From the human T2T-CHM13v2.0 reference genome, Homo sapiens, in NCBI RefSeq assembly GCF_009914755.1, contig NC_060937.1: a stretch of DNA of 64,000 bases, one strand, 5' to 3'. This document shows positions 15,066 to 32,544 of the stretch, one piece after another. The position numbers were made by a program, and so were the translations under genes. Each line of letters opens with the position of its first letter. The first letter of the stretch is position 1. The notes under the pieces were generated by a model. It was given only the letters and a program-made list of their open reading frames with translations, was not told the origin of the DNA and did no database searches.

Positions 15066-15739
15066 TAAGACTACTTAAATTTTTTGTGTATATATTTGTG
15101 TAGGTATTTACAAATATATATATGAATTTTATAAAATGACATATATTTTATATATAATCTATATACCTGAGTGAAGAAAGCCATGATAAATACATATCAA
15201 AGTGGAAAATAAACGTACAACTTTGACAACGCAACATTCAAACAAGAGCAAGCTGTATTTAACTAATAGTTATATTGAAAGATAAAGTCAGAGCCAAATA
15301 AAAGACAATATTTAACTGCAAGGATGTGAAGTATATAAGAATAAGGGATATAAGAATGAGGTCAGATTAAGATAAAGATGATTCCACTAGGGCCAATAGA
15401 AATTTCATTCAAGATTTAAAATGTACCCAATACAGCCAAATATTTTATACCTGTAACCACTACTCCACCCTATTTTCCTATAGATGTTCAAAAGGAATTC
15501 CAAAGAGTGAAAGAAGAAATTATCTTGCCACAGTAAGTAGAGAGGAATGAGTAGTCATCTTTACAAAAAGTGCAACATTTGGTAGAGAGGGGAGATATTG
15601 CTAAAGCTGACTACAGAGTAGAAGTCATGTGGAAGACAGTCAGCACACGCAGTTTATATTTCCAATGATTCTTTGACAAGGGTTGCCTATACCTCAAGTT
15701 TTTTTAATAGTATACCTTCACAACTTAATCTATCTGTAG

Positions 15740-16046
15740 TTTTTTGTTTTTTTGTTTTTTTGAGACGGAGTCCTGATCTGTCATCCAGCAGGCTGGAGTG
15801 CAGTGGCACAATCTCAGCTCACTGCAACCTCCGCCTCCTGGATTCAAGCAATTCTTCTGTCTCAGCTTCCCAAGTAGCTGGGATTACAGGCGCCCACCAC
15901 AACACTCGACTAATTGTTGTATTTTTAGTAGAAATGGGGTTTTGTCATGTTGGCCAGGCTCTTTTGAAACTCCTGATCTTGGGTGATCCACTTGCCTTGG
16001 CCACCCAAAGTGCTGGTATTTCAGGTGTGAGCCACCGCGCCAGGCC
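15740..16046 (-). mobile_element. AluS
   Basis: Full dimer; flanking repeat ACTTAATCT at 15723-15731 and 16048-16056. Confidence 0.93.
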
Positions 16047-16909
16047 TACTTAATCTCTTCAAAAGTTAAAATTGGGCAATTATATGTGGGGCCTTCCATA
16101 TTGTATTTCTTAAGAGGTGGAATATGGACAAGATTTATATATTGATAAAAATATAATGATTGATCACACACAAACACATACATTTCCATGTATGCACTGA
16201 AAAAAAAAAAACCGAAAACTTTAATTCTCATTCTGTCTTTATTTTAGAGAAAATTTTCTTTGAGTTAAACAAAGTTCAATTAAAAGATGTGGCCCAGGCA
16301 ATGAAGAGCTTGTGACTTAGACAGGAGTCAACTTCAATTCCTTTGGGTTAGAGTCATTAACATTTGCGTGTAAAACTTTCTATATAGATTATATGAGGTG
16401 TTTCAGTTCCAGACCTCAAAACAAGCATAGATCATTAAGTTACACCTCTATCAAGGTAAAGGTTAAATAGTTTGAGGAAAATGACAGGAATTCTCAGAGC
16501 ATAATGTAATTTTAGAATTTAGCTTTAAATTGTCTGGTTTCTAAGACAAAAAAGAACAAAAGTAAAGAAAAAAGTTATTTTCCATCCTCTAAAGCAGATC
16601 TATGGAATAGAGTTTGAAGTCATGGGCAGGGCTCTTCAGCGTTATACAAATTAAGTAATTTTTGACCAAGCAAAGAAGTGATCACCAAGGCCAAAACATG
16701 CTTCTACAACTTTGCGCCATTATTAGATGCACACTGATTAAGAAAACCCTGAGTTATTGGTATTTTTCATATATATAATTAATTATCAGAACTCTGAAAT
16801 AGCGCTAAAAATACAACAAAAGAAAAAATACATCATATCGATTTTTTGAGAAATTCATAGAAAAAAATTCAAAACCATTATCATCATACAATTTAAGAAA
16901 TAAATTTTT

Positions 16910-17281
16910 TCTGTCTCTGTCTCTCTGTCAGTCTCTTTGTCCATCTGTCTCTTTCTCTGTCTCTTTCTCTTTCGCTCTCTCTCTGTGTCTTTGTCTCTCT
17001 CTGTCTGTCTCTGCCTCTGTCTGTCTCTCTTTCTCTCTCTCTCTGTATCTTTCTCTCTCTCTTTTCTCTCTCTGTCTCGCTCTCTCCCTCCCTCTCTTTT
17101 TTCTAAAATGAGCTCTGGCAGATCTAATAGAATCCATTACCAAGGCCTGAATTCTTAACTTTAGAAATCAAAGATTTGATCTCCATACAGAATCCTGTAC
17201 AAAACTGGTGAGTTGATTTCTGGGCTTGGATACCTCATAGATATTACATATTAATAAAGATCCAACCCTGAAAAAAGATAA
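16910..17281 (+). pseudogene. Putative retrocopy of a pyrimidine-rich rDNA intergenic-spacer-like transcript
   Basis: (TC/TG)-rich 16911-17100, unique 17100-17270, AATAAA at 17253-17258, A-rich 17271-17281, flanking direct repeat AAATAAATTTTT at 16898-16909 and 17282-17293; unique part resembles recalled human rDNA IGS sequence. Confidence 0.7.
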
Positions 17282-18524
17282 AAATAAATTTTTAACTTTT
17301 CTATCTGGACCCCAAATAGATAAACACATGCTAATGTCTTATACTTTGGAGTATTCTTAATGTGTGAGAACTCATTCACACCAGTTAATATTTTTGGAAT
17401 GTGCTACAAAATGGGACTACCTCATACTAAAAGTTGCTTTCTCATGAATAGAGATGTCTAATACGAGATAAATGGTTGAGGTTAATTTTTGTTTTGCATG
17501 TGATGTTCTTCATGGTTATTCACAGCAATCAGCTCTAAGCCAGTATTTCACAGTCTGGTTTACAAAGTAATTTAATTGCTGTCTGTAAAGCATAATTTGT
17601 TAGGAATACTAAAGGATAGTAGATTGGGAATAATTTACTTTCAAATGTTGTACTTCAAGTTGGAGCAGATTTGTAGGTACCTAGCACTGAGGTCATGTTT
17701 ACTTTCACTCAGATATGTTTAGTGTTTAGCTGTGGGAGAAAGAAAGAGGTGGAGCTGGAGTTGTCTTACAAAGGATTGTGCAGTTTGAGTGCCTACACTG
17801 GCAGAAATGGACCAAGACTAGGTGTCTATACTATGAATATAGAACCAGAGAAAGAATATCCCTTGAAATAGTGCACTATCTTTGTTAGCTTCTTACTTTT
17901 TTTAATCTAAAAACATGATATGTATTATTATTTAAAAGTTTGTAAATAAGTTTTACACTAGGGGGATCTCTTATATAGTCTATTTATGAAGCCAAATTTA
18001 AACATGAAAAATTATTTTAAATTATTCCAAAGAGATATTTAATAAAAAAGCTGATAAAAGCATGGGGAGGTGTTTGGTGATCTATATACATGAATACGTA
18101 TATACATGAGTGAAGAAAGCCATAAGCCAGATACAAGTAGCTGCAGCTCTGAGTGTGGATACTGGAGATTTTGACAAGAGTAGACAGCAGTAGTCAGTCT
18201 ACCAGCTCTAGAAGAGTCAGAGATGACGATAGACTCACCAAGCCATGGTGCTGCCAAGGTAGAAGAGGCTGTTCCTTGGAAAGGGTAGTGGCTAAGAGCT
18301 TTCTGGAACCTTAGGCACACAAATATAAGATACATCCAATCATTCCCAAACATAGCTAAAGTATTAGAAGAAAAAATAACATAATACAAGATCCCACTTG
18401 AGACCTATCAAAACACTATCCTCACAAGTATTTTTAATTTCAAGTTTATAGACATTAATACTTATAGTGTAGATAGCACAGCAGTAGTCTACAAATCTGA
18501 GTTTGGGAAATATTTTATATTTCA

Positions 18525-18615
18525 GAGAGAAGAATAAGAATAAGGAGGTGGAAGGGGAGGAGAGGAAAAAAATGTAGAGTTGGGAAGGGAAAGGGGAAAG
18601 GGAAGGAGGAGAGGG
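18525..18615. repeat. GA-rich low-complexity tract
   Basis: Read directly. Confidence 0.7.
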
Positions 18616-21600
18616 ATCAGAGTACTAAAAATAGCTTCAGTCAGTCAAATCTACTAACATTCTAACTTCTGTGTGTTTGGAAAGTTCGGTTATTGGGATG
18701 AATCAGTCATTAGTGGTGTTGTATGGCTTGAAGTTGACTGTATAAAACAGCAAGCTCAAGTACAAATTGATATTTTAGTTTTCTTAATAATATTTCTCAC
18801 AACTGATATCAGCTACTGTAACATGGTGTTAGAGTACCCCATAGTGGTTTCATTCAAAAAGTTTTTTGAAAATCTAACGTCGTTGTCACTTGAAGGTATA
18901 GTAGGGTTCTACATTCAAAAGAAGTGCAAAAATACTGCTTTAGAGCAAGTTAAGCTATATAATTAATAAATTGATAAATATATAATGTTTAAAATCTCCT
19001 TACATTAACTGACTTCTAGGTCTGATACAGCGTCTAAAAATATAATCGCAGTAGAAATCTACGTGAAGAAAGTTTGCGTCAATCTGAAGAGGATATCACA
19101 GAGAAAGCAGTCAAGGAAAAGAAGTTACTGAAACACACAATGACAGTGACTTCCCGGCACTGTGCTGGGGAGATGGTCTCACAAAAAAGAGCAAAGGGAA
19201 GGTTTTATCTGGAGAATGTAGATGTGTTATATTTAAGGCAAAATCTCAGCCTAATTCTTCTAAACAAATCCCACCATTGGAATTGCTTGATCACTAAGCA
19301 ATATCCTGGCGATTTACTTTTCATTCCATGTCGCATTCAAGAACAAATATGAGTCAAGTCAATCTTAATGGTGCCTGATTTAATGTTTATTCAGGTATTT
19401 TTCACTTAAGATTAGTAACTGGGGACTCTGGTTTATATACATTTCTGTTAGTTTATGCCAGCTGGAGACTAAAATTGATACACACCTTAATAGCAGTGTA
19501 CCTACAGATCCCTTCAAACTTCTAAAAGTACATGGTAGGTACTTTTCAGGAAAGAGTTATGTTGAACAGCTTGACAGTAAAAAGGTTCCCGTAACTTTTT
19601 TCTAACAATACACACTAGAGTGTGGAATTCAGGATAGAATAATTCTATTGAACTCTGCTCAATATGCCTTTTTTCCTGAAGTAATAAAAGAACATCTGTA
19701 GCAGTCAATCTTGTCTATGGAGCAATTTCACCAAAGAGATATTAAGAAAATCCTTTTTCCTCTTCCCTCTTTCTTCCAGAAACATTTATTGAAACCATGT
19801 AAATATTCCAGGCAATACAAGAAGAGCTGAAACTGCAGAGACTCATAAGGCTTAGTTCTATGTCTACTTCGTCTAGTACAGTGGGCAGACTTGAAAAGTA
19901 AAAATAGTAACACCTTGTGAAAATGTATATAAGGCTGACAAATCAATTCTTCCGTGGAAAAGATGAGGATTGAGCAAGCTCTAGAGTCAAGCAAGGTCCC
20001 AGTTTACCAGTCTAAATGCTCTCAGCCAAAAAAAAGACATATTTTAGTACAAATCTTGTATTTGATTTATTGGTATCTGTATGTGGTTTTTGTATATTTA
20101 TGACTTCTATTATTTGTTGACATCCTGTGGAAATATAGCTGTCCATTAAATGTGTAGATGTTCCCCCTATGGCAATAGTTGATAAAATCAAAGGCATAAA
20201 AAATGAAAAGAATTGAACTAAATTTATAACTCATATGATTAGCCAGGTTTTCCAGAAATTTAAATTTATACTTATTTATATAAGCCTAAGCATATATAAC
20301 AAAGCTTTTGAGGTAATCCAGTTCTCATGAAGCCTGATTTCCTAAACTACTATAATGTCAATAAATTTAAGGATGAGATGGTTTACTTCCTTTCTCTTCA
20401 GGGAAATATACTCTATGCTAGTGAATAGGGTATGAAGAATATGACAAAGGGAATTCTACTCCTATAAAGCTGTGTAAATTCTGAATCTAATGAGAAAGTT
20501 TTACTTATACATAAAACAATATTTTTAACAGCTTAGAAAGTTGGCTGGAAAGAATGACACAATTTTAGATTTCAATCTATAATTTCAAAGCATTTTCCTG
20601 ATGAACTCTAAAGAGAATGCAAGAGTGTACCAGCTACCAGAAAGCAAATATGAAAGAAACCCCATGCTGACAAAGCAATCTTTTATCCTTGGTATTTTAT
20701 CTATGTCCTAGAGGAGATTCAACAGGTGAAATGTCACTGTGGATCAGATGTCTTCCTTTTAGAGCTCATTTTATTACATCTTAATGTATAATATAAATTA
20801 ATATCATTAAAATTAATAAAGATAACAAACAGGTAAATCAGATAGTGCAAAACAAACAAACAAAGAAAAGCCCGTTAACTCTATGCTGATTTTCACATTC
20901 AGGGAGATTATGCAAAAGATCAAAGGGATTTAATGAGAAAAATGTTAAACTTAAAATATACAAGGTATGCATCATCTTACTTTGTACATATTTGCATTTA
21001 ATTTTCATGGAGAAGGACTGATTTATATCTCTACTCAGACACTGACTCTGGTTAAAAATATCATCTTTATTAAGTCTCAACCAGCCATCAAACAAACAAG
21101 TACATTTTAAAATAGTATTCCCACCCTACAGGGTTCCAGTAAAGGAAATAATAAAGTGAAATATGAAAAAAAAATGTTCTTTGAGAGGAAGAGACCTAAT
21201 TAAGAGGAGGCCCTAACAACTCCATGGATTAATTGGGATGCAACTGAGATAATTGGACCTATGGGAGTTTGATTACACCCATCATAAACTGCTTTTTTCA
21301 CAAGTATAGGTTAAATGCTTGATGCTTAAATTGGGTATAGCACTACAATGAAAGCAGGGTTCATATAGAAAAATTAATATTTGGGAAAGCGATATCCTGA
21401 AGTTTTCCGGCATCGTAGTAGCAACATGGTTTTTTTTTTTTCAGATATGCAATTTTCTAGGTTTTTCGGAGCCACTTTCATAACAGTGTGGTTACAATTC
21501 TATCAACCGAAATATGCTTATGCTATTAAAAGTTGACATGTAGACCACATGTAGCTGCTTTGCAATTAGAAATCCAACAAGACCACATCTTTCTGCAATG

Positions 21601-22164
21601 GAAGTTAAAATGGGCTGCTGTTTTTAAAAATGATGTCCTTAAATGTTCATTGCAACAAACACTGGCTTTCAATTACATGATTTTCCAGGAAATAGAACCA
21701 CAGAATTGTAGAGCCTAAGGGAACCTCATTGATCATTTATCTGGCCAAATCTCATATTTTTACAGTTGTGGGATCTGACGTGAAGACAAAAGGTTGAAAG
21801 TTCTAGGTAAAAGCTAGGTTTTTATTAGGGGCTGGGAGATGTAGGGGCTCAGCAGGGGCAAGGCAGGAGGGGATAATTTCTTTTTGAAAATAAGTGACTG
21901 AAAAAGGAGCATCCATTTGCATACATCTCAAAATCTTGTGCTTCTGCAATACTTTAAAAACAAATCTCTATTGAGGGAGGTATGGAAGTGGAAAATTGAG
22001 AGTCACTTTATTTACACTGGGAAATAGGGTTGCATGCATATTTTAATAGTGAAGAGATATTCCTTTCATTAGGATAAAGGCAGAAACAATATTAAATTAT
22101 TACTATAGATAGAAAAGATACTACTTATGTAATTTAAGTAGGCAAATAGATCAGCTTAAAGAAT

Positions 22165-22315
22165 AGGGAGGAGGGTGAGGGATAAAAGACTACACACTGG
22201 GTACAGTGTACACTACTCTGGTGACAGGTGCACCTAAATCTCATAAATTACCACTAAAGAACTTATCCATGTAACCCAAAACCACCAGTTCCCCAAAAAC
22301 TGCTAAAATAAAAAA
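22165..22315 (+). mobile_element. L1PB2/3-like 3' end
   Basis: GGGTGAGGGATAAAAGACTACACACTGGGTACAGTGTACAC...ACCACTAAAGAACTTATCCATGTAACC...TTCCCCAAAAAC plus A tail. Confidence 0.88.
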
Positions 22316-22419
22316 CAGGATAGGTTTACTAGCAGCCTCTAGCATCTGTAGGTTTTAGTAGTATGCCCAAAAGTCTTAGATGAAGCCACCCTTATCTCTT
22401 AAGGGGACAGATCTATAAA

Positions 22420-22740
22420 AACATGCTGGATATTTCCTTTTCTCCACCTGCTTCATGCCTAGTAGGCTAACCTTTTTAGACAGTTTCAATAGGGGCCTCC
22501 TGCCCTCCAACTTTTTTGGAGGGTCCAGCTAATGGGTCATCAACAAGTGATCAGTGGTGGGCAGAAATACAAGTGTGAGTAATTAAACCCAGGGATAAGT
22601 CATCAATGGACTGTTCTTGAAGTCAATCTGTCCCTCCAACAAAGGCTATAGCTCCTGCCAGACAGCCTCTTCTACTCATATAGCAATAGCTCTTTTTCCT
22701 GTTCTGGCAAACTCTTCCTTCTTTGTCCTTTTGAGCTAAA
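22420..22740. mobile_element. LTR33-like ERVL LTR fragment
   Basis: CTCCACCTGCTTCATGCCTAGTAGGCTAACC...CCTGCCCTCC...CAGCTAATGGG...GATCAGTGGTGGG; degraded. Confidence 0.5.
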
Positions 22741-23010
22741 AATCCACATTTTTGTCTCTTCAAGACTATTCTGAACACTGAAGCGAGAGAAGCATTTCAA
22801 AAACACAAATATGGTCACTGATAACTCCTAAATTCTAACCTAAGCTAAAAATCACAGGAGATTCTGGCTGCTTCTCATCACTCCAGGTTCACCTGAGTTA
22901 ACTCCTACATACCTTTCAGGACTCAGCTTAAATGTCACATTTTGGTACATCTACTGTGTTCCAGTATGGCTATTATGTTCCACTATGTCTTCATAGCACT
23001 CATCTGAAAT

Positions 23011-23193
23011 TTATTTTTATTTACTTATTTTTTTAAGAGAAGAGGTCTTGCTAAGTTGCCCAGTCTTGAGTGCAGTGGCTATTCACAGATGCAATCATGA
23101 TGTACTACAGCCTGGAACCCCTGGCCTCAAGTGGTCATCCTAGCTCAGCCTCCTCAGTAGCTAGGACCATAGGTGTGCACCATTGCACTTGAC
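23011..23193 (-). mobile_element. FAM (fossil Alu monomer)
   Basis: GAGTGCAGTGGCTATTCACAGATGCAATCATGATGTACTACAGCC is the FAM-type segment; degenerate flanking repeat TCAT(C/T)TGAA. Confidence 0.85.
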
Positions 23194-23584
23194 TCATTTG
23201 AATCTTAATATAGTAATTTGTTTAATTAGCTTTAGATCTATAGGAGAATATGTTTCACTTTTCTTTTTCCTTTCCTCCATTCCTCCCTTCAGCCCCTCCT
23301 TCATTTCTTCCTTCCTTCTAATCTTAGATCGTTGTCATTTAGTCTTTATTTCCCTTCAGTCTGTTCTTTTCGTAAATAGTTTGCCATGGTTCCTGCCCTC
23401 CTGGATTTTACATTTGACAAGAGAGGCAGATATTAAACCATTAAGTACAATAGTAGTAATTCAATTACAATCATGATAAGTGCTAGGAGGACAAGTTTCC
23501 AAGTCATATGCCATCTTCCCTGAATGAACATCAAAGCCTAAAACAGAAACTGGCAGATAATAAATCGACCTGCGGTGAGGTAAG

Positions 23585-23845
23585 GAGGCAGTATAGAGTT
23601 TTGATAAAGAACATCAGTTGTGCAGTCAACTCGAACTAGGTTCAAATTTTGGACTCTTTAACTTTTGCTACCTATATACATTAGGCAAATTGATTTATCT
23701 CCTCAATTCTCAGTTTTCCAATTATAAATGAGACTTATAAAATTTTCCCCATGGAATTATCATCAATATTAAATGAGAAAAAGTTGCATAAATCACTGAA
23801 AAGAGACCCTGATAGACATGTTGTGCTAACATTATGGTAGTATTT
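23585..23845 (+). mobile_element. MIR
   Basis: GAGGCAGTATAG...AGGTTCAAATTTTGGACTC...TTAGGCAAATTGATTTATCTC...CTCAGTTTTCC...ATTAAATGAGA. Confidence 0.7.
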
Positions 23846-25127
23846 TTAGAAAAACAAAGACATCTTGGACTATGTGTTGATTTTTAGAAAAAAGAACAAC
23901 AACAAGCTCAAACGTAATACATTTCTTTTCTATTTTTAGCAGACTATCACAATTTAAATTAACCATAATTAAAATTTCACAAAAACATGGAACAATTGGG
24001 TCCTAAGCACAAGGCATAAGGTAGCCAACATTCTGGCATAAGGAATTTGGAAAAAATATTATATCAGCTTCAGAAATACAGCTTTATGTACAAGAAGCCA
24101 CCTGGCACATGCAATAAAACAACTTTATTAATACAGTATGTTTCATGCATAAATCTGATCAGATTTGCTCTAGCAATCATCCTGTGTGCCTCAAGACACC
24201 TGCAGTAGGAGAAGAAATCATGTTTCTATCAATTCTCAAAACTCCCATCTTTTGTGGCATCATTTGATGTTAATTTGCAATACAAAGTTAACTTACATCT
24301 CATTATCATGCCACAATTTGTTTACATGCAAGTGTTCAATTTCTAGCTCATTTTTTCCTCATTTATAAAATTATCTTTGGATTATTTTTCTGTTTAGTAA
24401 ATTGTAAGCAAATGAAAGCTGTGTGTTATTCTTTTATATTAGAGTCTATTATTGAAGGGTTTGCTGGAATTGTCTCTGAGAAAATTAACTTAATCAAACA
24501 TTATTTGTATTTTTATTTTCTATATTTTATACCACATAAACTCATACATAAATAACCCATAACATGGTATGAATCTTGGTTGAAATAATATTTCTAAGTG
24601 TCACAAAGGGGCTCAACATAAACATAACATTTTAATAAAATAAAAAATAAAACTATGAAAATATCACAGTAAATCTTACAAGTTAAAAATATTTTGATTG
24701 TTTATTCTCAAATATTAAATATATAATTTTTTAAGCAAAGCATTACAAAGCATACCAATGTCACTGGGCTATCAATATTTATATTTGGCATATTAAAGTC
24801 ATTTTAATTTCTCTATTATCTATATAGAGGTACACATTGTTTGGTGGAAAGTAAACCAGAAAAAAAAAAAGTCTCACAAGTATAGTTTCAGTCATTTAAA
24901 TTTCGTTGATTACAAAAGATACCAGCGACACTCTTAAGTTTAGCTTGATTAGACGTGAACCTGAATAAATTAAGCTAAATGTATAACTGGTGGAATTTTA
25001 CTTTTTATAATAATATGATGTATCCATTCAACTACGTGACCGATCCTAAGTCAGCCAGCCGGTGTGTCTTTCATGTATAACTGTTTCCATCACATCAAAG
25101 ACAAAAGAAAATGAAAATAACATGCTC

Positions 25128-25683
25128 AGGGCTTTCCAATAGAATTTCCTTCAACGGAAGAAATGTTCAATGGCTGGAAATGTTCTATATATATGTGCTC
25201 TCCAATACAGTAGCTCTTAGCCACATGTAGCTATTGAGCGTTTGAAAAGTGCCTGGTCTCATTAAGAATTGAACTTTAAAATTTAATTTAATTGGCCAGG
25301 CACGGTGGCTCACGCCTGTAATCCCAGTACTTTGGGAGGCCGGGGCGGGTGGATCGCGAGGTCAGGAGATAGAAACCATCCTGGCTAATACAGTGAAACC
25401 CTGTGTCCACTAAAAATACAAAAAAAAATTAGCCGGGCGTGGTGGCGGGCGCCTGTAGTCCCAGCTTCTCGGAGGTTGAGGCAGGAGAATGGCGTGAACC
25501 CGGGAGGCGGAGCTTGCAGTGAGCCGAGATTGCGCTACTGCACTCCAGCCTGGGCGACAGAGCCAGACACCGTCTCAAAAAAATAAATAAATAAAATAAA
25601 ATAAAAATAAAAATTAATTTAATTATAATAAACATAAATCTAAACAACCACATGTGACTAGTGGCTACTGTATTAGAAAGCAG
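25128..25683 (+). mobile_element. MER3 MITE interrupted by AluY
   Basis: TCCAATAGAATTT...GGAAATGTTCTATAT...TCCAATACAGTAGC..TAGCCACATGTAGCTATTGAGC [Alu] CCACATGTGACTAGTGGCTACTGTATT. Confidence 0.85.
25294..25609 (+). mobile_element. AluY
   Basis: GAGAATGGCGTGAACCCGGGAGGCGGAGCTTGCAGTGAG diagnostics, many intact CpGs; TSD ~AAAAT(T)TAATTTAATT at 25278-25293 and 25610-25624. Confidence 0.95.
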
Positions 25684-25695
25684 AAGATGGTCTGA

Positions 25696-26031
<336 letters not shown>

Positions 26032-27382
26032 TAATTTTTTACACTAACATTTGCATTGAGAAACAAGACAATTATGTAGGAACATATTCATAATAACCTG
26101 CTTCAACTTGCAGAATACAACCCTTCCTGAGTCTCTTTAGTTATATTCATAAGGGACTAAAGACCACAGGGGACAGACTTGCTATTAGGAGAGAGCCAAC
26201 GTCTGACTCACCCAATCTTCACCTGGTGGAATAAAAAGCCACCTTGCAAACCTAACATGCTTGCAGTGTCCCTATGTGAATCACCTTCTGCTTCTGTGTT
26301 GAGAGGAAGAAAGCAGCTCCCAAACAGATGGTTTACCATCATGCAGAAGAAAGAGGGGGGAAATGATGGAGTCACTTCTTTCTCCTGCTCATCTACTAGA
26401 TTTGTTTTTTTTAACTCTGGAGGGAACTCATCAGCAAATTTTAAAAGTTATTTAACATATGAGCAAAGCATAGAAAATGGACAGATTGAGGCGGCTGTGT
26501 ACTGTGTTTATATTTTAGTCCTACTTTTTCTATAAAAGAAACCCATGTATTTATTGTGCTTCATCAAGGTACCCACATTTGGGCATTGTTTAGCCCTAGA
26601 GTTTTCATATCCATCCCTCAAGGTGATTTACAATACCCCAAATGACGTATTGTTATTATCACCTAAGCATTAAAGTGGCCTCCATTCAAGTAAAATCAGT
26701 ACTCAGTGAGCAGTAATTGTATTGTGTATAATTACAATTATCCCTGTCCTCCTAACTTTTTGCCAGTGTTCACACTTGCTCACCTTCAATCAGACAGCTT
26801 TGTTTTATTAATATCTATTCAAGTTTTGGTACTTGGTTCCCTGGGAATTTCATCCATTTTACCCACTAGCTTGTTACTTTTCTTCATTTGATTTAATTTG
26901 GATATTATTTTCTAAGTATATGACATTGAAATCTATTATAATTATCAGATTCTATCTGCATGATGATTAAGTTCCCATTTTTTATGCTGATTACTGCTAA
27001 TGTTTCACAAAAGAAAGTGCATTTTACCTGAGCTGCTTTGATTTAAGGATTATGAGCTAACACAGTGTTTCTTTTAAAAATGACAAAACATTTGTTTGCT
27101 TTTTAAAAAGTATCATTTTTGAAGAATAGAAAGTGGGATAAAGAGATTTATTAGTGTCTTAGGAGGCATGTAGTAAAATTAAATCACTTCACATTTTCCA
27201 TACGCCTAATGTTGCTTTCAGATTTGTGTAGAGTATACATATAATTTATTGTCCCAAATGGGGCCTTTTTAAGAGCAAAACAAGGCTTTGTTAATAATTA
27301 AGCTGGACGAGCAGGTACAAACAGAGACTGTTGCCAGCAAACCAGGACAGAGTGACCCTGGATTCAAGGATGCTTGGATATA

Positions 27383-27811
27383 TATTTGACTCTGGACAAC
27401 ACAGGTTTGAACTGCGTGGATCCACTTGTACATGGATTTCCTTTTGCCTCTGCCACCCCTGAGAGAGCAAGACCAACCCCTCCTCTTTCTTCTCCTCCTC
27501 AGCCTACTCAATGTGAAGATGATGAGGATGATGAACTTTGTGATGACCCACTTCCACTTAACCGATAATAAATATACTCCTCCTTGTGATTTTCTTAATA
27601 ACACTTACTTTTATCTAGCTTACTTTATATTGTAGGAATACATATAACGTACACAATATGTGTTAATTAAATTTTTAAGTCATTGATAAGGCTTCAGGTC
27701 AACAGTAGGCTATTAGCAGTGAAGTTTGGGGGGAGTCAAAAGTTATGCATGACTTCTCAACTGTGTGCAATGTTGACACCCCTAACTCCAATGCTGTTCA
27801 GCGTTCAACTG
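27383..27811 (+). mobile_element. Tigger2a (MER28) non-autonomous TcMar DNA transposon
   Basis: TIR-like ends TTGACTCTGGACAACACAGG...TGTTCAGCGTTCAACTG; internal GCCACCCCTGAGAGAGCAAGACCAACCCCTCCTC...CAGCCTACTCAATGTGAAGATGATGAGGATGA. Confidence 0.88.
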
Positions 27812-28018
27812 TGTTGACCCTTTAGATGAAGACTGACAAATGGGAATAGATCCAAGCCTTTCCCGAACTCCCCTATGTCACAAGGGGGCCTATTATCAAT
27901 ATAAAGGTGTTTCCATCCACCATGTTGGAGGCCCCATGCAACTGCTTCTGCTTTTGTCTCAGGTCATTTGACACACTGCTGTTGTTCAGGATCTCACTCT
28001 GTTTACCCTATTCTTTAA

Positions 28019-30243
<2,225 letters not shown>

Positions 30244-30765: not shown

Positions 30766-31489
30766 ATGTTGTTAGTGCAATAATGTGATGAGCAGCCCCA
30801 TGGTTCTTCATCTAGTCACTTCTGATAACATAAAACATATTCCCTGGGTTGTTGCTCTCTACTTTCTGTTTATCTTTTTATTTACAACATAGGTAAATCA
30901 GTTTCAGTTTCTTTCACATTTTCTCATATTCATTCAGGATTTGACCATTATTCTGACAAATTAAACTATTCCTTTCTATTTATCTTAGTTTCATTTCCAG
31001 TTTATTCTATCAATATTTCATAGTTTTAAATATGAGTCTCTTAGAGTTCCCTATGCAGTCTCCTAGATTTTGGTAGCTATTTTGGTATCTTTTTCTCAGT
31101 GAGATTGTTCATAATTCTGCAGTTCAGTGGCTTTTTTTTTTTAACATTTCCATTCTCCTTGAGCAATATTTCATTTCTGAAAAATCACCCAAAGAAAATG
31201 AAATCACCACCTCATAAAAATATTTGCATTCCCATGTTTATTACAGTATTGTTCACAATAACCAAGATATAGAAACAACCTAAGTGTCCACTGAGAGATG
31301 AATACATAAAATAATCTGTGGGACATGCATACAATGGGATCTTATTCAGACCTAATAAAGAGCTAAATCATCTCATCTGCCTCATTGGATAAGCCTGGAG
31401 GACATTATGCTAAGTGAAGTAAGCCAGACAGACAAAAAATATATTGCACGATCTCACTTATGTGGAATATTTAAAAATATGTCCAATAT

Positions 31490-31876
<387 letters not shown>

Positions 31877-32544
31877 CTAGAGAATAAAACAGTGGTTCCC
31901 AAGGGTGAGAAAAGATGGAGAAATAGGGTGATATAGGTCAAAGGATATAAAGTAGAGGTATGTAGAATAATCAAGCTAGAGATCTAATATACAACATGAA
32001 GATTATAGGTAATAAAATTGTACTGTGTATGGGATTCATTGTAAACAATTATGTTTTAGCTGCTCTAGGCACACAAGAAAGGGGTATCTATGTGAGATGA
32101 TGCATAAGTATGATTACTTCATTATAGTAACCTCTTTACTGTCTTTATGCATCCCATAACATCACGCTGTATACCTTAACTGTAGACAATAAAACTTATT
32201 ACAGAGTAAAAGGAAAGTTTGTTGATGGAAGCAAATCTATTTTTTGCCTAATTTTATTTTTTAAAAAATATTTCCAAAGACATGGTTTTATATTTCACTA
32301 GGATCAGCATCTGCTTCTTGCTTTGGAAAGCATGGTCATATGAGGCTGTGCAGAGTATTAAAGAACACAAGCAACCCAGGTGCAAATGCTGACTGCATGA
32401 CTCTGCTGTTGCCATTCTTTAAGCAACCAGAAGCTACCTGTCTTAGAAACAGGTCCATTCTCTCAAATGCCATTCTTTCAGATTCCCATGTGGCCAGCTT
32501 GCTCTTTCCTTGGGATATTCAGTCAACAGCAATTTTTTTCAGTG

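What the first reader, a model, noticed from the sequence alone, without database searches (positions are those of the whole stretch)
16895..17293. TSD-flanked, polyadenylated insert resembling the rDNA intergenic spacer: candidate L1-made retrocopy of an IGS RNA
Seen: ~190 bp of degenerate (TC/TG)n, then ~170 bp of unique sequence (TTACCAAGGCCTGAATTCTT...AGATTTGATCTCC.TACAGAAT..TGTACA.AACTGG.GAGTTGATTTCTGG.CTTGGATACCTCATAGA), AATAAA at 17253-17258, and an A-rich run starting 12 nt later. A 12-bp direct repeat AAATAAATTTTT flanks both ends (16898-16909, 17282-17293), and the left site reads TTT/AAGAAA, like an L1 endonuclease target. Knowledge, from memory and not searched: the unique part and its CT-rich leader resemble the sense strand of the human rDNA IGS around 28-30 kb of U13369, where pyrimidine-rich nucleolar ncRNAs (IGS28, PNCTR) are reported. 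The similarity appears to stop just after the AATAAA. Inference: an IGS-derived RNA was cleaved and polyadenylated at this signal and retroposed in an ancestral primate germline. That would make it a fossil of a processed IGS transcript, possibly one of a dispersed family usually masked as simple repeat.
Basis: partly seen in the sequence, partly recalled or inferred. Interest (0 to 1): 0.85.

Follow-up and report, generated by a model that had tools for sequence, protein, structure and literature searches.

The report
Retrocopy of ribosomal-DNA spacer RNA
A 384-base insert in a PCDH9 intron looks like an old reverse-transcribed copy of an RNA from the spacer between ribosomal RNA genes, which suggests this spacer once made a polyadenylated transcript in the germline.

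Summary

- **Homology:** window 16910-17273 matches the sense strand of the rDNA intergenic spacer (IGS). Identity is 85% over the 184-nt unique part. The matching IGS segment lies about 12.2 kb upstream of the next rRNA promoter.
- **3' end:** homology stops 15 nt after an AATAAA. The rDNA and all 22 other non-rDNA copies in this assembly read on past that point.
- **Insertion marks:** a short A-rich tail follows, and an exact 12-bp direct repeat brackets the insert. By chance this occurs at 15 of 63,300 positions, or 3 of 1,057 with AT-rich flanks.
- **Second retrocopy:** an independent copy on chr4 has a roughly 1.2-1.4 kb pyrimidine leader, an A13 tail and a 12-bp target-site duplication. 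Paralogous empty sites confirm it. It ends 21 nt further downstream.
- **The family:** most of the 23 dispersed copies are long DNA-level IGS duplications.

The mechanism is ordinary L1-type retroposition, but the source RNA is unusual. I found no description in print. The orthologous empty site in other primates could not be tested.

The parts
16898..16909 (+). Left copy of the target-site duplication, AAATAAATTTTT. It extends to 15 bp (16895/6-16909) if one G/A mismatch is allowed. The preceding TTT gives a TTT/AAGAAA nick site.
   Evidence: family D3. Chance estimate.
16910..17099 (+). 5'-truncated pyrimidine-rich (TC/TG)n leader. It corresponds to the 3' part of the 1.3-kb pyrimidine block that directly precedes the unique segment in the rDNA IGS.
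   Evidence: window 16908-17273 aligns to C13:6841933-6842316. One search shows the last ~30 nt of the leader aligning column by column in all copies. locates the IGS block at unit 30801-32100.
17100..17273 (+). Unique IGS-derived segment in the sense orientation. It is 85% identical to present rDNA and 92-93% identical to the chr7 and chr12 copies.
17253..17258 (+). AATAAA polyadenylation hexamer inherited from the IGS. Homology ends 15 nt after it.
   Evidence: In the IGS it is the first sense-strand AATAAA for 7.4 kb.
17274..17281 (+). Residual non-templated A-rich tail, AAAGATAA. The A run begins at 17271, but the first three A's are templated, because the source reads CCTAAAA.
   Evidence: All other copies read TCTGG... 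at this point.
17282..17293 (+). Right copy of the target-site duplication, AAATAAATTTTT.

Best explanation
Window 16910-17281 is a processed retrocopy. A sense-strand RNA from the rDNA intergenic spacer, or from an IGS paralogue of that era, was its source.

The RNA carried the pyrimidine-rich (UC)n block and the ~180-nt unique sequence that follows it. It was cleaved about 15 nt downstream of an AAUAAA and polyadenylated. LINE-1 target-primed reverse transcription then copied it into a TTT/AAGAAA site in what is now a PCDH9 intron. Reverse transcription or integration stopped inside the (UC)n block, which left only 190 nt of leader.

**Shown:**
- the homology, its strand and its exact limits;
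- the flanking 12-bp duplication;
- the hexamer position;
- a second, independent retrocopy from the same 3' region.

**Inferred:**
- L1 as the enzyme;
- cleavage and polyadenylation as the way the 3' end was made;
- a germline setting;
- an age of very roughly 20-45 Myr, from a private branch of 0.047 substitutions per site combined with recalled neutral rates.

The insert itself most likely has no present function.
For: **Source and strand.** The query hits an array of 46,970-bp period on C13 at 85% identity. Rfam places 18S, 5.8S, 28S and the promoter-associated pRNA on the same strand. The unique segment is C13:6842132-6842316. That is 21.5 kb after the 28S end and 12.2 kb before the pRNA/promoter hit.

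**Limits of homology.**
- Only window 16908-17273 matches the IGS.
- After CCTAAAA, the rDNA and all 22 other non-rDNA copies continue with TCTGG... The window alone switches to AAAGATAA plus the repeat.

**Target-site duplication.** The 12-bp exact repeat abuts both ends. Its chance frequency is 15 of 63,300, or 3 of 1,057 with AT-rich flanks.

**Polyadenylation signal.**
- The 3' end lies 15 nt after AATAAA. Only 1.1% of IGS sense positions lie 10-30 nt after an AATAAA.
- This hexamer is the first on the sense strand for 7,368 nt, downstream of two large pyrimidine blocks.
- The IGS sequence just past the cleavage point is G/T-rich (TCTGGGGTGG, or TCTGGGTTTG in clade A). This resembles a downstream element, by recalled knowledge.

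**Independent second event.** The copy at C4:82.688 Mb has a ~1.2-1.4 kb leader plus the unique segment, and it ends 21 nt further on.
- It carries an A13 tail and the duplication AATGTAT(T/C)GTTG.
- It sits inside a high-copy repeat. In 10 of 11 uninterrupted paralogues the two flanks are adjacent and overlap by the duplicated bases.
- It falls in the other clade of the tree, so it is a separate event at a different time.

**Shared 3' region with variable 5' extent.** The leaders are 190 nt, about 75 nt and about 1.2-1.4 kb in the window, C7 and C4 copies. This is the classic retrocopy pattern.

**The neighbouring IGS is not a transposon.** The 800 bp upstream of the pyrimidine block gave 258 candidates genome-wide. 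The retrotransposon flank of the chr4 copy gave 5,545.
Against: - The A tail is very short (8-11 nt, interrupted), so polyadenylation is inferred from position rather than from a long tail.
- The duplication is A/T-rich and begins with A's, so its left limit and the tail length are ambiguous.
- No orthologous empty site could be examined. The upstream flank is unique in the genome, so no paralogous empty site exists either.
- The best-known sense RNA of this region, PNCTR, is reported as a Pol I product that did not appear capped or polyadenylated (PMC6224606, passages read).
- The window copy groups with two chr12 pericentromeric IGS paralogues (support 93/85). The template could therefore have been such a paralogue rather than the rDNA array.
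- The tree rests on only about 207 columns.
- The chr7 copy has a 20-bp flanking repeat but no A tail. Not every short copy fits the model.
Confidence: 0.72

Rival explanations
1. It is a retrocopy, but the 3' end was not made by the AAUAAA-dependent machinery. A Pol I IGS transcript such as PNCTR, or a decay fragment of it, received an oligo(A) tail from a surveillance poly(A) polymerase. Alternatively L1 primed on the internal CUAAAA. In either case the nearness to AATAAA would be coincidence.
For: PNCTR is reported as Pol I-made and not polyadenylated (PMC6224606, passages). Sense IGS RNAs are attributed to Pol I in a review (PMC9575697, passages). The tail is short, and the source already has four A's at the break.
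Against: Only 1.1% of IGS sense positions lie 10-30 nt after an AATAAA. A second independent retrocopy ends 36-37 nt after the same hexamer. A G/T-rich stretch follows the break in the source.
Confidence: 0.1
2. It is an orphan 3' transduction. A retroelement upstream in an ancestral IGS read through its own terminator and used this AATAAA. After severe 5' truncation, only the transduced IGS sequence was integrated.
For: This would explain a Pol II-type polyadenylated RNA and efficient cis-mobilisation. An Alu lies 1.3 kb upstream of the pyrimidine block, at unit 29267-29468.
Against: A blast of the whole rDNA unit against 11 copies of the chr4-flank repeat returned only Alu-sized blocks. The 800 bp upstream of the block is IGS-specific, with 258 candidates. 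Neither the window copy nor the chr4 copy carries any retroelement sequence at its 5' end. This tests only the present-day IGS and only part of the retroelement.
Confidence: 0.07
3. It is a DNA-level event. A fragment of rDNA spacer, for instance from extrachromosomal rDNA or a decayed segmental duplication, was captured at a double-strand break. The A-rich run and the flanking repeat would be chance features of an AT-rich site.
For: Most dispersed copies (19 of the other 22) are DNA-level duplications that run on past this point. Robicheau et al. treat dispersed IGS sequence as incompatible with reverse transcription (PMC5381670, abstract and passages). The chr7 and chr14 copies lack A tails.
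Against: The 12-bp duplication sits exactly at both ends (15 of 63,300 by chance). The break lies 15 nt after the hexamer (1.1% by chance). The nick site is TTT/AAGAAA. The location is euchromatic and intronic, far from pericentromeres. The chr4 copy proves that this RNA region was retroposed at least once.
Confidence: 0.06

Closest known systems
L1-mediated processed retrocopies (processed pseudogenes) of mRNAs and lncRNAs
   Same: Sense copy of a transcript. The 3' end lies 15 nt after AATAAA. There is an A-rich tail, a 12-15 bp target-site duplication, a TT/AAAA-like nick site and 5' truncation. The 5' extent varies among independent copies.
   Different: The template is the rDNA intergenic spacer, which is regarded as Pol I territory or as non-transcribed. 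It is not a Pol II gene. The tail is unusually short, and there are no introns to show processing.
Dispersed DNA-level rDNA/IGS pseudogenes (Robicheau et al. 2017, PMC5381670; abstract and passages read)
   Same: Same source sequence. 19 of the other 22 copies are of this kind. They are long, collinear with the IGS, and mostly pericentromeric or on acrocentric short arms.
   Different: The window copy is 364 nt long, euchromatic, bounded by a duplication, and ends at a poly(A) site. That paper argues that the presence of IGS excludes reverse transcription. This copy and the chr4 copy are exceptions.
PNCTR and IGS28 RNA, sense-strand pyrimidine-rich IGS transcripts (PMC6224606, PMC9575697; passages read)
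   Same: Same strand and same (UC)n-rich character. The two published PNCTR gapmer targets map 2.9-12.9 kb upstream of the unique segment in the same spacer. [quoted passage not shown] Its 3' part could therefore reach this site.
   Different: PNCTR is reported as Pol I-made and not polyadenylated. In what I read, its 3' end is not defined. I could not map IGS28 because no sequence was available. Identity of the template with either RNA is not shown.
cdc27 processed pseudogene inside the human IGS (mentioned in PMC6281188, passages)
   Same: Retroposition involving the rDNA spacer in primates.
   Different: The traffic runs the other way. There an mRNA copy landed in the IGS. Here an IGS RNA copy landed in a chromosome arm.

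Membership tests
L1-mediated processed retrocopy | Homology to a transcribed source, in the sense orientation and confined to the transcript | tested here: met
   Only window 16908-17273 matches the IGS. It lies on the strand that carries 18S and 28S.
L1-mediated processed retrocopy | 3' end at a poly(A) site 10-30 nt after AATAAA/ATTAAA, followed by a poly(A) tail | tested here: inconclusive
   The position is met: 15 nt after AATAAA, where chance gives 1.1%. The tail is only AAAGATAA, 8 nt of non-templated sequence.
L1-mediated processed retrocopy | Target-site duplication of about 7-20 bp directly flanking the insert | tested here: met
   A 12-bp exact repeat, or 15 bp with one mismatch. 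Chance frequency 15 of 63,300, or 3 of 1,057.
L1-mediated processed retrocopy | Insertion at a TT/AAAA-like L1 endonuclease site | tested here: met
   The left junction reads TTT/AAGAAA. The consensus itself is recalled, not taken from a call.
L1-mediated processed retrocopy | Independent copies share the 3' region and differ in 5' truncation | tested here: met
   The chr4 copy has a ~1.2-1.4 kb leader, an A13 tail and its own duplication, and it ends 21 nt later. Its empty site is seen in 10 of 11 paralogues. The window leader is 190 nt.
L1-mediated processed retrocopy | Orthologous empty site in species that diverged before the insertion | not testable with these tools
   No primate genome is held. 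The upstream flank is single-copy, so there is no paralogous empty site.
DNA-level dispersed rDNA pseudogene / segmental duplication | Collinearity with the rDNA unit beyond transcript-like limits, and no insertion hallmarks | tested here: not met
   The window homology is 364 nt and stops at the hexamer. By contrast, C2, C14, C21 and C22 copies are collinear for 7-8 kb and the chr12 copies across roughly 20 kb of the unit.
PNCTR / IGS28-derived sequence | Lies within the mapped transcription unit of that RNA | tested here: inconclusive
   Gapmer targets map upstream at unit 19413-29229, against the segment at 32132-32316. The published start and length allow the transcription unit to reach this site but do not fix its 3' end. 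IGS28 was not mappable.
Plain (TC)n microsatellite (as masked in the NCBI file, 16941-17106) | Simple repeat arisen in situ with no homologous flanks | tested here: not met
   The repeat is contiguous with a 174-nt unique segment shared with 23 other places. It lies inside the duplicated target.

The most novel reading that the evidence does not exclude
The AAUAAA that lies about 21.6 kb after the 28S 3' end (C13:6842296-6842301) may be a genuine, long-used 3'-end processing site. The RNA would be a pyrimidine-rich sense IGS transcript: the 3' end of PNCTR, or a shorter Pol II-type RNA starting near the IGS28 / 'zone-2' promoter-like region.

The hexamer is the first sense-strand AATAAA for 7.4 kb. 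A polyadenylated isoform would then have been present in the primate germline or early embryo at two or more widely separated times. The retrocopies of the old clade A (window) and the younger clade B (chr4) would record this.
Probability: 0.35. Interest if true: 0.7.

Novelty: new member of a known kind. Interest (0 to 1): 0.55.

Why it matters
Dispersed rDNA-spacer sequence has been read as purely DNA-level debris. One study states that the presence of IGS rules out reverse transcription (PMC5381670). This copy and the chr4 copy show that spacer RNA was retroposed at least twice.

Retrocopies form only from RNAs present in germline or early-embryo cells. They therefore give independent, sequence-level evidence for three things:

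- a sense, (UC)n-rich IGS transcript existed there;
- its 3' end lay just after a particular AAUAAA;
- this happened at different times in primate history.

That pins down a precise, testable 3'-end coordinate for nucleolar non-coding RNAs such as PNCTR or IGS28-region transcripts, whose ends and polymerase are still debated. The clade-A copies also preserve an older state of a fast-evolving spacer. The insert itself is probably inert.

Tried and rejected
- **Rfam:** a scan of 16000-18500 gave only two sub-threshold chance hits (NBR2 at E 0.14, NsiR1 at E 0.98). Neither lies in the insert.
- **Paralogous empty site for the window:** not possible, because the upstream flank has one match in the genome, itself.
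- **Catalogued high-copy repeat:** rejected. The unique part gave 245 first-look candidates, about 222 of them the rDNA array. Four pattern searches designed to exclude rDNA found only the same set of loci, with 0 hits to the reversed control patterns.
- **Orphan L1 transduction:** no donor was found in the present IGS. It is kept as a minor rival.
- **Naming the chr4 flank:** a Pfam scan of 6 ORFs from one paralogue gave 0 families. The 'LINE-1' label is therefore my recollection of the sequence. The tools show only that it is a repeat with 5,545 candidates.
- **chr7 repeat:** The repeat finder did not list the 20-mer. A script found it.
- **Published poly(A)+ IGS transcript coordinates (PMC6281188, tables S10-S21):** the files are old .xls or PDF and unreadable here. 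The four readable supplements held nothing on them. These tables may bear directly on whether a poly(A)+ RNA ends at this site.
- **Literature searches for a prior description:** searches found none. Subscription journals are not covered.
- **chr14 copy (61.25 Mb) as a further retrocopy:** rejected as unproven. It has no tail and no flanking repeat, and it is internally duplicated.
Full report
**What is in the sequence**

- A degenerate (TC/TG)n tract lies at 16910-17099. TRF reports periods of 6-28 at 69-74% matches.
- Non-repetitive sequence lies at 17100-17270.
- AATAAA is at 17253-17258.
- An A-rich run starts at 17271.
- AAATAAATTTTT occurs at 16898-16909 and again at 17282-17293 (family D3).

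With one G/A mismatch the repeat extends to 15 bp, and the left junction then reads TTT/AAGAAA.

I tested the repeat against chance across the whole 64-kb window, keeping the same geometry. A shared 12-mer between a 25-nt zone and a 35-nt zone 364 nt apart occurs at 15 of 63,300 positions. It occurs at 3 of 1,057 positions where both zones are at least 80% A+T, as they are here.

**Where the sequence comes from**

The window's own assembly could be searched. The query 17090-17293 found a regular array on the same chromosome (C13, 5.8-6.9 Mb, period 46,970 bp) at 85% identity over query positions 1-184. It also found dispersed matches at 85-92% (40 of 245 candidates were scored).

I fetched one full period. 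Rfam placed 18S, 5.8S, 28S, the promoter-associated pRNA and mir-663 on its + strand. The matching segment, C13:6842132-6842316, is therefore on the sense strand of the rDNA intergenic spacer. It lies 21.5 kb after the 28S 3' end and 12.2 kb before the next promoter region.

On a 43-kb unit this would be roughly 30.5-30.7 kb, if the extra length of this 47-kb unit lies upstream. This is an estimate. The reference U13369 is not held, and the distance from the start site to 18S is recalled.

In the spacer, the segment is directly preceded by a 1.3-kb block of at least 85% pyrimidines (unit 30801-32100). Two larger such blocks lie further upstream.

**Limits of the homology**

I compared window 15400-18800 with the rDNA unit. 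The only spacer match is 16908-17273 (81% over 386 columns). An unrelated Alu at about 15735-16050 also matches the spacer's Alus. Against 20 loci, the homology never leaves 16905-17273.

At the 3' end, the rDNA and every one of the 22 other non-rDNA copies read ...CCTAAAA TCTGG(G/A)... and go on. The window alone reads ...CCTGAAA AAAGATAA followed by the direct repeat.

**The poly(A) signal**

The break lies 15 nt after the AATAAA.

- In the 33,954-nt spacer there are 24 sense-strand AATAAA hexamers.
- Only 1.1% of positions lie 10-30 nt after one of them.
- This hexamer is the first for 7,368 nt, coming after the two downstream pyrimidine blocks.
- The spacer sequence immediately after the break is G/T-rich. 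By recalled knowledge this resembles a downstream element of a canonical poly(A) site.

**The family**

The DNA search and four pattern searches built to exclude present-day rDNA converge on 23 non-rDNA copies. The reversed control patterns gave no hits.

Most are DNA-level duplications of the spacer:

- Copies on C2 (132.7 Mb), C14, C21 and C22 are collinear with the unit for 7-8 kb.
- Those on C13, C14, C15, C16 and C24 are collinear over the whole 3 kb fetched.
- One C20 copy is collinear apart from an internal deletion.
- Two copies flanking the chr12 centromere (34.15 and 38.00 Mb) carry collinear spacer pieces at about 76% identity. These pieces span roughly 20 kb of unit coordinates (18.7-39.9 kb).

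This is the class described by Robicheau et al. (PMC5381670; abstract and passages read).

Four places are short and lie in chromosome arms.

1. **The window copy.**
2. **C4:82.688 Mb.**
   - It has a ~1.2-1.4 kb pyrimidine leader plus the unique segment. It ends 21 nt after the window's end, with an A13 run.
   - It is flanked by AATGTATTGTTG and AATGTATCGTTG.
   - It interrupts a repeat with 5,545 genomic candidates. I recognise that repeat from memory as LINE-1, but no tool named it and Pfam gave nothing.
   - In 10 of 11 uninterrupted paralogues, the two flanks are adjacent and overlap by the duplicated bases. This is a paralogous empty site.
   - It is an unambiguous retrocopy.
3. **C7:98.220 Mb.** A 257-nt insert that ends 23 nt after the window's end. 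It has no A tail, but an exact 20-bp repeat on both sides within a compound microsatellite. Its mechanism is unclear.
4. **C14:61.25 Mb.** A 1.7-kb internally duplicated piece with no tail and no flanking repeat. Its mechanism is unclear.

**Relationships and age**

A maximum-likelihood tree was built on the shared ~207 columns for 22 rows. The C14:9.87 and C15:15.08 copies were left out because they were fetched later. The tree gives two clades, each with 100/98 support.

- Clade A holds the window, both chr12 copies, C7 and the two C14 copies.
- Clade B holds C4, present rDNA and the pericentromeric and acrocentric copies.

The window carries the clade-A state at 11 of 11 diagnostic columns. 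It has 7 private states, and its end branch is 0.047.

The chr12 members of clade A are long copies of much of the spacer, so clade A is best read as an older state of the spacer. The window copy was made from that older state. The chr4 copy was made from a later state closer to today's rDNA. They are therefore two separate events at different times.

With recalled neutral rates of about 1-2.2 x 10^-9 per site per year, a branch of 0.047 suggests an age of very roughly 20-45 Myr. That branch rests on about ten changes, so the uncertainty is wide.

The window is sister to the chr12 pair (93/85). I therefore cannot exclude that a chr12-type paralogue, rather than the rDNA array, was the template.

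**Mechanism**

The best reading (0.72) runs as follows.

1. A sense spacer RNA contained the (UC)n block and the unique segment.
2. It was cleaved about 15 nt after AAUAAA and polyadenylated.
3. L1 target-primed reverse transcription copied it into a TTT/AAGAAA site, with 5' truncation inside the repeat.

The homology limits, strand, duplication, hexamer position and the independent chr4 event are shown. L1 as the enzyme, the way the 3' end was made, and the germline setting are inferred.

Four weak points remain:

- the very short tail;
- the A/T-rich duplication, whose left limit is ambiguous;
- the lack of an empty-site test;
- the published finding that PNCTR, the known sense pyrimidine-rich spacer RNA, is a Pol I product that did not appear capped or polyadenylated (PMC6224606, passages).

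The rivals are:

- a retrocopy whose A tail came from surveillance oligoadenylation or internal priming (0.10);
- an orphan transduction from a retroelement in an ancestral spacer (0.07). No donor was seen in today's spacer;
- DNA-level capture with chance hallmarks (0.06).

**Relation to known spacer RNAs**

The two published PNCTR gapmer targets each occur twice in the unit, at 19413, 23525, 23839 and 29229. All are upstream of the segment at 32132-32316.

[quoted passage not shown] In this unit that could bring its 3' part to the hexamer, but no 3' end is given in what I read.

Agrawal and Ganley describe a 'zone-2' at about 28.2-32.6 kb of their reference. They report transcription-associated chromatin, a CAGE peak and overlapping transcripts there, as well as poly(A)+ spacer transcripts in general (PMC6281188, section 21 read). 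Their coordinate tables could not be read here. The link to PNCTR or IGS28 is therefore a lead and has not been shown.

**Novelty**

Six literature searches found no description of a retrocopy of spacer RNA. Robicheau et al. explicitly treat IGS presence as excluding reverse transcription. The library does not cover most subscription journals.

The mechanism is the ordinary one for processed retrocopies, so I file this as a new member of a known kind with an unusual and informative source. Interest is 0.55.

The boldest reading still open is that this hexamer is a real, long-used 3'-end site of a polyadenylated sense spacer RNA expressed in the primate germline. I give it probability 0.35 and interest 0.7 if true.

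Noticed in passing
L002 1478-1734 (C7:98.220 Mb, minus strand): A 257-nt clade-A spacer fragment: about 75 nt of leader, the unique part, and 23 nt beyond the window's end. It has no A tail but is flanked by an exact 20-bp repeat, ATATATATGTATATGTATAT, inside a compound (TC)(TA)(TG) microsatellite. It could be a tail-less retroposition or a DNA-level insertion at a staggered break. Its end branch in the tree is 0.
   Followed up: partly
L009 974-2688 (C14:61.25 Mb): A 1.7-kb clade-A spacer piece. It starts 450 bp upstream of the pyrimidine block (unit 30355), directly after an Alu A-tail. The block-plus-unique part is tandemly duplicated. There is no A tail and no flanking repeat. By distance from the next promoter, its 5' limit would fall near 28.7 kb of a 43-kb unit, close to where IGS28 is named. 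This was not tested.
   Followed up: partly
L027 and L028/L029 (C12:34.15 Mb and 38.00 Mb): An inverted pair of old (~76% identity) spacer paralogues on either side of the chr12 centromere. Their collinear pieces span roughly 20 kb of unit coordinates (18.7-39.9 kb). They preserve an older spacer state, including about 20 nt after the hexamer region that present rDNA and clade B lack.
   Followed up: partly
L021-L025 (one rDNA unit, C13:6810001-6860000): Each of the two published PNCTR gapmer target sequences occurs twice per unit (19413 and 23839; 23525 and 29229). This reflects an internal duplication of the spacer of about 4.4-5.7 kb. The sense strand has no AATAAA between unit 24928 and 32296.
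   Followed up: partly
L010 1115-1425 (C4:82.69 Mb): A younger Alu in antisense orientation has inserted about 60 nt downstream of the chr4 retrocopy, inside the same older interspersed repeat.
   Followed up: no
window 15735-16052: An Alu element that matches the many Alus of the rDNA spacer at 72-77%. It is unrelated to the insert and overlaps the NCBI-masked stretch 15783-16050.
   Followed up: no
window 16247-16308: A sub-threshold Rfam match to the NBR2 lncRNA conserved region (29.1 bits against a gathering score of 40, E 0.14). Probably chance, or part of a repeat.
   Followed up: no
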